This document shows, piece by piece, positions 41,389-43,202 of a stretch of 64,000 bases of DNA; the stretch's first letter is position 1; each line of letters begins with the position of its first letter. The position numbers were made by a program, and so were the translations under genes. Under the pieces are notes generated by a model that had not been told where the DNA came from, did no database searches, and worked only from the letters and a program-made list of their open reading frames with translations. Location of the stretch: assembly GCF_056712565.1 (NCBI RefSeq), contig NZ_CM160072.1. One strand, given 5' to 3'.

Positions 41389-41913
41389 TCAGTTTTCCTC
41401 TTTTTTCATCTCAATCGCACTGGCGCGGATATGCACCAGCAGGCGATAGTGGTGGCCGATACTTTCTACCGACTCAATTTGTTTCCATTCTGTGGCCTGG
41501 TCGTCTGAAAAATAGGCAATGACACCGATATAACCGGTTTTCTCATCCAACTTGATCGGCGGCAGTGTTTTTACGGTATCCGGCAACAGGTTGAAGTCCT
41601 GGTGATCGATATAGTTTTTCCCCAGCACGTCGGGCAGCGCGGTGGTGGCAACCTGGTCGTAGTCGGCGGCATGGAATTTTGAGTCGTCGCTCAGATAAAC
41701 CAACTGGACATCCACCGGCGCGGCTTCGCCATCCGCCGTCAGGTTGCTGTCCGGCTCGGTCAGCAGCGTGACGGTCAGCTCGGTTGACTGATCCATCAGC
41801 TTTCCGACCTGAATATCCGGATTGCGGATCACCTGGCTGATTTTTTTCGCTGTTTCACAGCCAGTTAATACGACGCTCATCAGAACGCAGGCCAGAAACG
41901 CTTTGCCGTTCAT
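41389..41913 (-). CDS. tssJ: T6SS outer-membrane lipoprotein TssJ
   Basis: 174-aa ORF with lipobox (VVLTGCET); SciN-like size. Confidence 0.8.
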   Translation of the reverse strand: MNGKAFLACVLMSVVLTGCETAKKISQVIRNPDIQVGKLMDQSTELTVTLLTEPDSNLTADGEAAPVDVQLVYLSDDSKFHAADYDQVATTALPDVLGKNYIDHQDFNLLPDTVKTLPPIKLDEKTGYIGVIAYFSDDQATEWKQIESVESIGHHYRLLVHIRASAIEMKKEEN

Positions 41914-43202
41914 GCTTCCGGCTCCCGCTGTTTTTCGCGCAGCACCCGGTCATAGACCTGGGCATAAACTTCATTGAACAGCATTTCAAATCCCTGCTGT
42001 CGGCTGGAGGCCAGCTCATCGTAATAGTTGCTGTACATCTGCCATGCCCAGGCGTCGTCCATTTTCTGGCGCAGTTCATGGCTGCGGCGGTATTGCGCAA
42101 AGCGGCGCATCAGGTTGCCCGGCGAAAAGGCGTCCAGCATGACACGCAACGCTTCCACAATCGCCGCCCGGTTAGCCTCTTCATGATGCCGGATGTTGCG
42201 CAGGCTTTCGGCGATGGCCGCAGGTGCTGCGAGATGTACCGGGCTTTTACCCTCGGCGAACATGACGTTCAGCGCGGTGGCATAGTCCATATCAAGGCGC
42301 AACGGGTTGTCTTCTAGTGGACGCAGGTGTTTATCCGACAGGCTGTTCTGTTGTTGTTGCAGACTCAGCAATCCCTTAATGGCGGCCTGCAACGCCCGTC
42401 CGGCCTCTTCGAGAAACTCATCCGCATCCTGAGAATTGTGCAGCGTCAGCGGACACTCCATACCGCGCAGCAGCGGGGTTACGGCCAGGTGGTACTGCGC
42501 CATGGCAGAAAATTCATCGCCGTCCTCATGACGGGCATTGCCGGGCGGCAGATCCATAAACGGCGTGTTGATCCCGTTTGCACCTGTCAGATCGGATGCG
42601 GGGGCTACGGGCCGGGAAACGCGTGGGGCGATCGGATCATCTGCCACCATCAGGCTTTCCGTCTGGAGTGCCTGGAGCGGATCGCTGGAAAAACCGTGCG
42701 CCACCGTGGGGGCAAGCTGATGCTGGAACGGCATTCCCGGATACGCCGGTTGTCCCTCGGTGGTCAGCAGGGTGTCCGCCAGACTGTCGCGGTTCATTAC
42801 AATCGTTTCCGGGGTCGCCATCCGCTCGTCATAGGTAACAGCTGCACCGTCATGCAGAAACACTTTCAGCGCCAGTGCGCCGAGCTGGATCTCATCCCCC
42901 TGGCGCAGGCGGATGAGCGCATCGGAAGAGGCCGGGGCCAGATTAATCATCAGTCCCGGCGTCAGGCACCGCAGGCAATAGGCTCCGTCGTGCCGGATAA
43001 CGGTACAGGCACGCGCAGCAATGCTTCCCGCCCGGTCCTGTACCTGCCAGTGACATTCCGGCGTATGGCCAATATCACCGCCGTTTTCGCTGAACAGGCA
43101 TTTTGCGGCGCGTCCGCTTTCCAGTTCGTTGCCATTCATCACCTGTAAAGTCAGTGAGGCCTGGCGGGATTGCTGTTTTTCCTCAGCCATAAGTGGTTCC
43201 AT
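41910..43202 (-). CDS. tagH: FHA-domain protein TagH (Fha)
   Basis: 430-aa product from MEPLMAEEKQQ...; FHA-like N-terminal region; start set at the ATG 5 nt after the tssG stop (the ORF-track extension to 43352 overlaps tssG). Confidence 0.75.
   Translation of the reverse strand: MEPLMAEEKQQSRQASLTLQVMNGNELESGRAAKCLFSENGGDIGHTPECHWQVQDRAGSIAARACTVIRHDGAYCLRCLTPGLMINLAPASSDALIRLRQGDEIQLGALALKVFLHDGAAVTYDERMATPETIVMNRDSLADTLLTTEGQPAYPGMPFQHQLAPTVAHGFSSDPLQALQTESLMVADDPIAPRVSRPVAPASDLTGANGINTPFMDLPPGNARHEDGDEFSAMAQYHLAVTPLLRGMECPLTLHNSQDADEFLEEAGRALQAAIKGLLSLQQQQNSLSDKHLRPLEDNPLRLDMDYATALNVMFAEGKSPVHLAAPAAIAESLRNIRHHEEANRAAIVEALRVMLDAFSPGNLMRRFAQYRRSHELRQKMDDAWAWQMYSNYYDELASSRQQGFEMLFNEVYAQVYDRVLREKQREPEA

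What the first reader, a model, noticed from the sequence alone, without database searches (positions are those of the whole stretch)
41910..43202. FHA protein present without a kinase/phosphatase pair or TagF
The cluster encodes an FHA-domain protein (TagH) but no Ser/Thr kinase, phosphatase or TagF-like repressor anywhere in the island. Any post-translational control through the FHA domain would need trans-acting factors or a phosphorylation-independent role, and regulation may be mainly transcriptional.
Basis: partly seen in the sequence, partly recalled or inferred. Interest (0 to 1): 0.3.

Follow-up and report, generated by a model that had tools for sequence, protein, structure and literature searches.

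The report
Kinase-less T6SS scaffold protein TagH
This E. coli type VI secretion gene cluster does encode an FHA-domain protein (TagH) with no partner kinase, phosphatase or TagF, but this layout is already known from Vibrio cholerae, and the FHA domain here has lost the residues that bind phosphothreonine, so it most likely acts as a phosphorylation-independent assembly scaffold.

Summary
The minus-strand ORF at 41910-43202 is TagH. It scores 424 bits against TIGR03354 (cut-off 120) and 143 bits against the T6SS_FHA_C domain. Its Pfam FHA score is borderline, but a confident AlphaFold model shows an FHA fold.

No Pkinase, PP2C or TagF domain turned up. I searched the annotated island ORFs, all unannotated stop-to-stop ORFs of 100 aa or more, and the six-frame ORFs of the whole 64 kb window.

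The window is E. coli phylogroup B2/ExPEC, and the T6SS island sits next to the tRNA gene aspV. Its gene order matches the Vibrio cholerae large cluster, except that the sigma-54 activator gene vasH is missing.

FHA-only clusters are documented for V. cholerae, E. coli O157 and Yersinia pestis, so the finding is already known.

My addition is that this TagH lacks the phosphothreonine (pThr)-binding residues: Arg→His46, Ser→Ala62, His→Ala65, and the loop Asn is deleted. Across the loci compared, 6 of 6 TagH proteins with an intact pocket sit beside a kinase and phosphatase. None of 88 with an eroded pocket does. The domain is still under purifying selection.

TagH therefore probably works like V. 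cholerae Fha: the N-domain binds TssL, and the C-domain drives condensate formation and baseplate contacts. Expression control is probably transcriptional.

In passing, tssL is a pseudogene in this strain, so its T6SS is probably inactive.

The parts
41910..43202 (-). tagH (fha/vasC/impI family). 430 aa from ATG 43202; RefSeq uses ATG 43190. It overlaps the tssJ start by 4 nt and begins 4 nt after the tssG stop.
42849..43160 (-). FHA-fold N-terminal domain (aa 15-118). The pThr pocket is eroded: His46 replaces the canonical Arg, Ala62 the Ser, Ala65 the His, and Thr81-Pro82-Gly83 replaces the S-T-N-G loop with the Asn deleted.
   Evidence: AlphaFold pLDDT above 95; Foldseek matches to solved FHA domains; family alignments anchored to GarA; dN/dS 0.10-0.28
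42498..42830 (-). Predicted disordered linker (aa ~125-235).
   Evidence: pLDDT 35-55; the least conserved part of the protein
41925..42485 (-). Helical C-terminal domain (T6SS_FHA_C, aa ~240-426). It keeps the three leucines (L271, L278, L279) that correspond to V. cholerae L334, L341 and L342, which are needed for condensate formation.
   Evidence: PMC13389060; dN/dS 0.03-0.11
28905..48507 (-). T6SS structural operon. Read along the minus strand, from 48507 down to 28905, the order is tssB-tssC-tssE-tssF-tssG-tagH-tssJ-tssK-tssL-tssH-vasI-tssA-tssM-vasL-hcp. This is the V. cholerae large-cluster order without vasH. It contains no kinase, phosphatase or TagF.
   Evidence: compare
39274..40026 (-). 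tssL (icmH/dotU), the presumed partner of the TagH N-domain. It is a pseudogene in this strain: an in-frame TGA at 39895-39897 forms codon 44. A restart at ATG 39885 is possible but has no Shine-Dalgarno sequence.
48559..49212 (.). AT-rich divergent intergenic region between tssB and hcp (24-31% GC, against about 56% in the cluster). It is the likely site of transcriptional control. It contains no sigma-54 -24/-12 match.
49213..54519 (+). The hcp-vgrG-DUF2169-PAAR-like/peptidase C39 effector arm of the island.
27375..27451 (+). tRNA-Asp (aspV), the left boundary of the island.

Best explanation
TagH here is the E. coli orthologue of V. cholerae Fha/VasC. It is a structural accessory protein of a T6SS cluster type that never carries the PpkA/PppA/TagF switch.

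The protein has three parts:
- An FHA-fold N-domain that has lost its phosphothreonine pocket. By homology it binds the cytoplasmic part of TssL in the membrane complex without phosphorylation.
- A disordered linker.
- A helical C-domain. By homology it self-associates into condensates and contacts baseplate proteins such as TssE.

Together these parts would nucleate assembly of the machine.

Whether the system fires is set mainly by expression. The likely mechanism is xenogeneic silencing and induction at the AT-rich tssB/hcp divergent promoter, not a threonine-phosphorylation checkpoint.

Shown here:
- the domain architecture;
- the absence of the kinase, phosphatase and TagF;
- the substitutions in the pocket;
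- the correlation between pocket state and kinase presence across loci;
- purifying selection on the domain;
- conservation of the condensate-helix leucines.

Inferred by homology:
- TssL binding;
- condensate formation;
- H-NS control.
For: 1. No kinase, PP2C or TagF was found by four independent searches.
2. The gene order is identical to V. cholerae-type clusters, minus vasH.
3. Pocket residues: GarA and kinase-linked TagH proteins share G-R, S-x-x-H and S-x-N-G. E. coli has His46, Ala62, Ala65 and no loop Asn.
4. The Pfam FHA score falls from 48-68 bits in kinase-linked TagH to 21 bits here and 14 bits in Salmonella. The E. coli sequence finds no solved FHA domain by sequence even at E = 10.
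5. All 6 intact-pocket TagH proteins with readable context sit next to Pkinase and PP2C genes, two of them also with TagF. None of 88 eroded-pocket loci does.
6. The FHA domain has dN/dS of 0.10-0.28, and G45, W52, N87 and D103 are invariant in 85 homologues, so the domain is still in use.
7. V. cholerae Fha was identified as P0311 because it carries all seven published marker residues. It is 47% identical to E. coli TagH in the C-domain and 32% in the FHA domain, and L334/L341/L342 align with L271/L278/L279.
8. Literature: V. cholerae has no PpkA or PppA, TagH is required for Hcp secretion, and it shows no detectable phosphorylation (PMC8993066, PMC10482370). Its N-domain binds the cytoplasmic domain of TssL, including in a bacterial two-hybrid assay, and its C-domain drives phase separation (PMC13389060).
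9. The promoter region is AT-rich, and H-NS represses the EHEC aspV-linked T6SS (PMC5363993).
Against: Nothing was tested biochemically for the E. coli protein.

In V. cholerae, mutating the residues at the former Arg and Ser positions (S38A/K54A) impairs function. The authors read this as phosphopeptide binding (PMC8993066), so the apical loops still matter, and a non-canonical phospho-ligand is not excluded. His46 could in principle contact a phosphate.

The intact-pocket sample is small: six loci from about three lineages. The eroded-pocket loci are phylogenetically clustered, so the correlation is not made of independent counts.

Most loci show only 10 kb on each side. Elsewhere in the genome only yegI-pphC was looked for, and it is present.

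The internal short isoform of V. cholerae Fha has no evident counterpart here: no Shine-Dalgarno sequence precedes any internal ATG. The mechanism may therefore differ in detail.

H-NS control of this particular island was not tested.
Confidence: 0.75

Rival explanations
1. TagH still works as a phosphopeptide reader. A kinase encoded elsewhere in the chromosome (for example the Hanks-type YegI, with PphC as phosphatase) phosphorylates TssL or another component, and the FHA domain docks on that pThr.
For: DNA of the yegI-pphC locus is present in 5416 of 5426 E. coli genomes. Reviews propose unidentified kinases for V. cholerae TagH (PMC10482370). Mutations in the apical loops of V. cholerae TagH reduce Hcp secretion (PMC8993066). 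In Agrobacterium, Fha binds pThr14 of TssL (PMC3953482).
Against: Every canonical phosphate-contacting residue is replaced or deleted. The same erosion is seen across the whole kinase-less clade, while kinase-linked TagH proteins keep the residues. No phosphorylation was detected in V. cholerae, and the Fha-TssL interaction was reproduced by bacterial two-hybrid (PMC8993066, PMC13389060).
Confidence: 0.12
2. In this strain tagH is a passenger in a decaying, non-functional T6SS island, so the question of how it is regulated is moot.
For: tssL has an internal stop at codon 44, and RefSeq flags it as a pseudogene in the matching genomes. DotU/TssL is essential for Hcp1 secretion in the APEC T6SS2 locus (PMC4224132). 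ISAs1 remnants flank the island.
Against: tagH and every other core gene are intact. The 3-kb segment spanning tssK-tssJ-tagH-tssG, which contains tagH, is 100% identical to strains such as NU14, whose tssL is intact. The tssL lesion is rare and therefore recent: 7 of 548 genomes carrying the island. Cross-species dN/dS shows long-term selection on TagH. This reading concerns the strain. It does not explain what TagH is, and it is compatible with the main explanation.
Confidence: 0.1
3. A kinase, phosphatase or TagF-like repressor is present in the island but is too divergent to recognise, for example the unassigned 261-aa ORF at 27780-28565, or VasI or VasL.
For: Three island ORFs have no family assignment. 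My PP2C profile did not detect E. coli PphC, which shows the limited reach of home-made models.
Against: Pfam (24,736 models) found nothing at E ≤ 0.01-1. The unknown ORFs have no sequence similarity to any solved kinase or phosphatase. VasI and VasL are standard accessory proteins of V. cholerae-type clusters. The kinase fold is among the easiest to detect.
Confidence: 0.03

Closest known systems
Vibrio cholerae Fha/TagH/VasC (VCA0112) in the large T6SS cluster
   Same: It occupies the same position (tssG-tagH-tssJ) in the same gene order. Its cluster also has no PpkA, PppA or TagF. It has the same three-part architecture: FHA fold, disordered linker, T6SS_FHA_C. The canonical Arg and Ser of the FHA pocket are replaced (S38/K54 in V. 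cholerae, H46/A62 in E. coli). The condensate-helix leucines are conserved. Identity is 47% in the C-domain and 32% in the FHA domain (PMC8993066, PMC13389060).
   Different: E. coli has also lost the structural His (Ala65) and the loop Asn. Its linker is about 65 aa shorter. It has no counterpart of the internal start M262 with its Shine-Dalgarno sequence. Its cluster lacks the sigma-54 activator VasH. The function of the E. coli protein is untested.
Threonine phosphorylation pathway Fha proteins (P. aeruginosa Fha1, A. tumefaciens Fha, S. marcescens Fha)
   Same: They belong to the same protein family (TIGR03354), have the same domain order, and sit next to tssJ-tssK-tssL.
   Different: Those proteins keep the pThr-binding Arg and Ser (R32/S48 in Fha1, R30/S46 in Agrobacterium Fha). 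They are encoded with PpkA, PppA and usually TagF, and they depend on phosphorylation of Fha or TssL (PMC3953482, PMC10482370). None of this applies here.
EHEC O157 aspV-linked T6SS and the APEC T6SS2 / NMEC RS218 locus
   Same: These are E. coli islands at the same tRNA-Asp site with the V. cholerae-like gene set. The window is 100% identical over tssK-tagH-tssG to APEC O18, ExPEC XM and NU14. The literature lists E. coli O157 among the FHA-only clusters (PMC8993066). H-NS represses the EHEC cluster (PMC5363993). DotU is essential in APEC T6SS2 (PMC4224132).
   Different: A second E. coli allele group, about 71% identical to this TagH, was seen in plasmid-collection records, and 2216 complete genomes match the region's DNA at only 60-80%. 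That the EHEC-type TagH belongs to this group is my inference; no EHEC sequence was compared. The window's strain carries a tssL nonsense mutation that those reference strains lack.

Membership tests
TagH / Fha family of T6SS accessory proteins (TIGR03354, Pfam T6SS_FHA_C) | Full-length match to the family model above its curated cut-off | tested here: met
   TIGR03354 scores 423.8 bits against a cut-off of 120.25, covering profile positions 1-420 of 420.
TagH / Fha family of T6SS accessory proteins (TIGR03354, Pfam T6SS_FHA_C) | N-terminal FHA fold plus a C-terminal T6SS_FHA_C domain | tested here: met
   PF20232 scores 142.6 bits and PF00498 scores 21.1 bits against a cut-off of 20.7. The AlphaFold and Foldseek results show an FHA fold.
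TagH / Fha family of T6SS accessory proteins (TIGR03354, Pfam T6SS_FHA_C) | Encoded inside a T6SS cluster, next to tssJ-tssK-tssL | tested here: met
   The local order is tssG-tagH-tssJ-tssK-tssL.
Canonical phosphothreonine-binding FHA domain | Conserved Gly-Arg in the beta3-beta4 loop, where the Arg contacts the phosphate | tested here: not met
   E. coli has Gly45-His46. Only 3 of 85 homologues keep the Arg. The position is anchored on GarA through a kinase-linked TagH.
Canonical phosphothreonine-binding FHA domain | Conserved Ser-x-x-His in the beta4-beta5 loop | tested here: not met
   E. coli has Ala62 and Ala65.
Canonical phosphothreonine-binding FHA domain | Conserved Ser/Thr-x-Asn-Gly in the beta6-beta7 loop | tested here: not met
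   E. coli has Thr81-Pro82-Gly83, and the Asn position is deleted.
Canonical phosphothreonine-binding FHA domain | Binding to pThr peptides | not testable with these tools
   This needs ITC or pull-down assays with the purified domain.
T6SS threonine phosphorylation pathway (PpkA-PppA-Fha, with or without TagF and TagQRST) | A Hanks-type kinase PpkA encoded in the cluster | tested here: not met
   No Pkinase hit by Pfam, tblastn or my own HMM, although the HMM detects YegI.
T6SS threonine phosphorylation pathway (PpkA-PppA-Fha, with or without TagF and TagQRST) | A PP2C phosphatase PppA encoded in the cluster | tested here: not met
   No PP2C or SpoIIE hit.
T6SS threonine phosphorylation pathway (PpkA-PppA-Fha, with or without TagF and TagQRST) | The TagF repressor (PF09867) | tested here: not met
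   No TagF_N hit.
T6SS threonine phosphorylation pathway (PpkA-PppA-Fha, with or without TagF and TagQRST) | Phosphorylation of Fha or TssL that is required for secretion | not testable with these tools
   This needs phosphoproteomics and genetics.
V. cholerae-type kinase-independent Fha scaffold | The cluster gene order tssB-C-E-F-G-tagH-J-K-L-clpV-(vasH)-vasI-tssA-tssM-vasL | tested here: met
   The order is identical except that vasH is absent.
V. cholerae-type kinase-independent Fha scaffold | The C-terminal leucine-rich helix residues needed for condensates (L334, L341, L342) | tested here: met
   They align with L271, L278 and L279 (residues from PMC13389060).
V. cholerae-type kinase-independent Fha scaffold | An internal in-frame start codon with its own ribosome-binding site, giving a short isoform | tested here: not met
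   No Shine-Dalgarno-like sequence lies upstream of the internal ATGs (M216, M234, M248), and the M262 region is not alignable. Translation itself was not tested.
V. cholerae-type kinase-independent Fha scaffold | Binding of the N-domain to the TssL cytoplasmic domain, and phase separation | not testable with these tools
   Inferred by homology only (PMC13389060).

The most novel reading that the evidence does not exclude
Across the whole V. cholerae-type T6SS lineage (Vibrionaceae, Enterobacterales, Pasteurellaceae and some Alphaproteobacteria), the TagH FHA domain has lost its phosphothreonine pocket. Natural selection has kept it as a phosphorylation-independent docking module for TssL. Pocket integrity would then predict from sequence alone whether a given T6SS uses a threonine-phosphorylation checkpoint. 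The papers I read treat the substituted residues of V. cholerae TagH as 'conserved phosphopeptide-binding sites'. This point may therefore not have been made explicitly.
Probability: 0.6. Interest if true: 0.35.

Novelty: already known. Interest (0 to 1): 0.2.

Why it matters
The absence of a kinase and phosphatase next to this FHA gene is not an anomaly. It is the normal state of one major T6SS cluster type, and its V. cholerae member has been studied experimentally.

The useful refinement is a sequence rule. TagH proteins with an intact GR / SxxH / SxNG pocket travel with PpkA and PppA, and those with an eroded pocket do not. This rule argues against searching for a trans-acting kinase for the E. 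coli ExPEC/APEC T6SS. Attention should go instead to expression control and to the TagH-TssL scaffold interaction.

For this strain specifically, the tssL nonsense mutation means the T6SS is probably inactive. That matters for any phenotype attributed to it.

Tried and rejected
1. A direct sequence search of E. coli TagH against PDB chains found no FHA domain even at E = 10. I had to go through a structure prediction and a kinase-linked homologue to anchor the pocket residues.
2. The genome-contig scan returned only close relatives at 40-98% identity. It served as a negative set but gave no kinase-linked comparators. Those came from a Rhizobium plasmid and from metagenome contigs. One of them, P0208, sat on a contig too short to read.
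3. I looked for a V. cholerae-like internal start codon in E. coli tagH. Met234 is fairly conserved in Enterobacterales and Met216 in close relatives, but neither has a Shine-Dalgarno sequence. The V. cholerae M262 region lies in the unalignable linker. I found no support and dropped the idea.
4. A sigma-54 promoter search found no match in the tssB/hcp intergenic region, and window-wide matches were at or below chance. This fits the absence of vasH.
5. The sigma-70 consensus scan of the intergenic region found no more sites than in shuffled sequence and was uninformative.
6. My PP2C profile failed to detect E. coli PphC. The absence of a phosphatase therefore rests mainly on Pfam.
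Full report
**What the window is.** The 3-kb segment around the finding is 100% identical to E. coli phylogroup B2/ExPEC chromosomes, including NU14, ATCC 11775, APEC O18 and ExPEC XM. The RefSeq annotation of NU14 shows a T6SS island inserted after tRNA-Asp (aspV), which lies at window 27375-27451. Read along the minus strand, the structural operon runs tssB-tssC-tssE-tssF-tssG-tagH-tssJ-tssK-tssL-tssH-vasI-tssA-tssM-vasL-hcp. On the plus strand lie hcp-vgrG-DUF2169-PAAR-like/C39, followed by ISAs1 remnants. My Pfam scans reproduce these assignments.

**Checking the observation.** The ORF at 41910-43202 on the minus strand is intact and encodes 430 aa from ATG 43202. RefSeq prefers ATG 43190.
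- It is TagH: TIGR03354 scores 423.8 bits against a cut-off of 120, and T6SS_FHA_C scores 142.6 bits.
- The Pfam FHA match is only 21.1 bits against a cut-off of 20.7, and a sequence search against PDB finds no FHA domain at all.
- I therefore predicted the structure from an 85-sequence alignment. Residues 15-118 form a beta-sandwich with pLDDT above 95. Residues ~125-235 are predicted disordered. Residues 240-426 are helical with pLDDT above 90.
- Foldseek matches the N-domain to solved FHA domains (FhaA/Rv0020c, OdhI, GarA, Rad53 FHA1) at probability 1.0 and target TM-score up to 0.84. The FHA fold is real.

**Absence of a kinase, phosphatase or TagF.** Four searches agree.
- Pfam on the 20 annotated island proteins found only T6SS families.
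- Pfam on all 59 other stop-to-stop ORFs of 100 aa or more between 27.4 and 58.3 kb found only DotU, the yafV nitrilase, DUF2859 and transposase pieces.
- tblastn of a T6SS-linked kinase, PP2C and TagF from Rhizobium phaseoli against the whole window gave nothing better than E = 0.6.
- Profile HMMs built from six T6SS kinases, six PP2C phosphatases and two TagF proteins hit no six-frame ORF of 50 aa or more in the window. The kinase model did recover E. coli K-12 YegI as an independent positive control.
- The ORFs with no family assignment (27780-28565, 54494-54784, 56035-56538) show no kinase or phosphatase similarity: the first and last were also searched against solved structures and matched nothing relevant.

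**Is it unusual?** No. The literature states that V. cholerae, E. coli O157 and Y. pestis T6SS clusters carry the FHA gene without ppkA or pppA (PMC8993066). A 2023 review discusses V. cholerae TagH as required for Hcp secretion although no kinase is present (PMC10482370). The E. coli island has the V. cholerae large-cluster gene order, lacking only the sigma-54 activator vasH. Metagenomic and plasmid relatives show the same order.

**What the FHA domain looks like.**
- *Canonical pocket.* A kinase-linked TagH (P0264) aligns with GarA, a solved pThr-binding FHA protein. The alignment fixes the canonical positions G-R, S-x-x-H and S-x-N-G.
- *E. coli residues.* In the family alignment, which is anchored by the invariant residues G45, W52 and N87, E. 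coli TagH has His46 for the Arg, Ala62 for the Ser and Ala65 for the His. It has Thr81-Pro82-Gly83 with the Asn deleted.
- *Spacing check.* Sixteen residues separate the Arg and Ser positions. This matches P. aeruginosa R32/S48, A. tumefaciens R30/S46 and V. cholerae S38/K54 (PMC3953482, PMC8993066).
- *Family survey.* Only 3 of 85 diverse homologues keep the Arg. None of 80 loci from Enterobacterales and Pasteurellaceae genomes does.
- *Pfam scores.* Pfam FHA scores track this erosion. Kinase-linked proteins score 48-68 bits and kinase-less ones that keep the His score 33-37 bits. E. coli scores 21 bits and Salmonella 14 bits, and one relative (P0204) gives no match at all.

**Correlation with gene context.** Every intact-pocket TagH with readable context lies in a cluster with Pkinase and PP2C genes.
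- The Rhizobium locus also carries TagF.
- Four metagenomic loci carry PP2C and Pkinase.
- One NCBI genome-assembly contig carries TagF_N, PP2C and Pkinase in the P. aeruginosa H1-like order.

That makes 6 of 6. Among eroded-pocket loci the count is 0 of 88. These are the window, NU14, the 80 genome loci, four metagenomic loci, and the Thalassospira and Bartonella plasmids. The loci are not phylogenetically independent, and most show only 10 kb on each side. The pattern is nevertheless clean.

**Is the domain still used?** Yes. Against orthologues with unsaturated dS, dN/dS is 0.10-0.28 for the FHA domain, 0.03-0.11 for the C-domain, and higher for the linker. Several FHA-domain residues are invariant across 85 homologues.

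**Mechanism by homology.**
- *The V. cholerae reference.* I identified V. cholerae Fha as P0311. It carries all seven residues reported in two papers: S38, K54, E258, M262, L334, L341 and L342.
- *Similarity.* P0311 is 47% identical to E. coli TagH over the C-domain (E = 2e-56) and 32% over the FHA domain (E = 1e-20). The condensate-critical leucines align with L271, L278 and L279.
- *What is known for V. cholerae.* Fha is a scaffold (PMC13389060). Its N-terminal part binds the cytoplasmic domain of TssL, including in a bacterial two-hybrid assay. Its C-domain drives phase separation and contacts TssE, and no kinase is involved. Phos-tag gels and mass spectrometry found no phosphorylation of TagH (PMC8993066).
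- *Conclusion.* I conclude that the E. coli protein is the same kind of phosphorylation-independent assembly scaffold.
- *A difference.* One V. cholerae feature, the internal start at M262 with its own ribosome-binding site, has no evident counterpart. No internal ATG of E. coli tagH has a Shine-Dalgarno sequence, and the region is not alignable.

**Regulation.**
- *Indirect support.* The tssB/hcp divergent intergenic region is 24-31% GC, against about 56% in the cluster. It has no sigma-54 -24/-12 match, which fits the absence of vasH.
- *Related clusters.* The EHEC cluster at the same aspV site is silenced by H-NS and secretes Hcp when hns is deleted (PMC5363993). DotU of the APEC T6SS2 locus is strongly induced in vivo (PMC4224132). 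Mainly transcriptional control is therefore plausible but not tested here.
- *Trans-acting kinases.* DNA of the yegI-pphC locus is present in 5416 of 5426 E. coli genomes. Without a phosphate pocket in TagH, these enzymes are unlikely to act through it.

**Noticed in passing.** In this window tssL carries an in-frame TGA at 39895-39897, which is codon 44. NU14 reads GTGATGCGT where the window reads CCTGA. Only 7 of 548 genomes with the island have this allele, and RefSeq marks the gene as a pseudogene there. TssL/DotU is essential for Hcp1 secretion in APEC T6SS2 (PMC4224132), and it is the expected partner of the TagH N-domain. The T6SS of this strain is therefore probably inactive.

**Verdict.** The configuration is already known and is the norm for this cluster type. 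The added value is the evidence that the FHA pocket is eroded, together with a sequence rule linking pocket integrity to kinase presence. Interest is low.

Noticed in passing
window 39274-40026 (- strand); stop codon at 39895-39897: tssL (icmH/dotU) has an internal TGA at codon 44, caused by a small replacement (CCTGA here, GTGATGCGT in NU14). Only 7 of 548 E. coli complete genomes carrying the island share this allele, and RefSeq flags the gene as a pseudogene ('internal stop'). An ATG 9 nt downstream (39885) could restart a 203-aa product lacking the N-terminal 48 aa, but it has no Shine-Dalgarno sequence.
   Followed up: yes
window 48559-49212: The divergent tssB/hcp intergenic region is very AT-rich (24-31% GC, against about 56% in the flanking genes), as expected for an H-NS-silenced promoter region. 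It contains no sigma-54 promoter match, and the cluster lacks the vasH activator found in V. cholerae-type relatives.
   Followed up: partly
window 53080-54519 (+): The PAAR-like protein carries a C-terminal peptidase C39-like domain (aa 352-474, 27.5 bits), a candidate effector domain. It is followed by a 96-aa ORF (54494-54784) with no family match, possibly an immunity protein.
   Followed up: no
window 27780-28565 (+): A 261-aa ORF lies between aspV and the terminal hcp. It has no Pfam, NCBIfam or PDB sequence match and sits in low-GC DNA (about 45%). Its function is unknown.
   Followed up: partly
window 55222-55803 and 57146-57490 (+): These are frameshifted ISAs1-family transposase remnants (DDE_Tnp_1_assoc and DDE_Tnp_1 fragments). 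They flank a DUF2859/ICE PFL_4695-family gene (56608-57120) at the right edge of the island.
   Followed up: no
tagH codons 216 and 234 (window 42557 and 42503): Met234 is conserved in most Enterobacterales TagH orthologues, just upstream of the C-domain, and Met216 is conserved in close relatives. Neither has an upstream Shine-Dalgarno sequence, so there is no evidence for the internal short isoform described for Vibrio Fha.
   Followed up: partly
loci L085, L086, L094, L096 (metagenome contigs): A small clade of intact-pocket TagH genes sits in a distinct arrangement: tagH-tssJ-tssK-tssL-tssM-PP2C-Pkinase-(about 105-aa ORF with no family)-tssA. The kinase is short (about 300 aa) and apparently lacks the large periplasmic domain of PpkA.
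   Followed up: no
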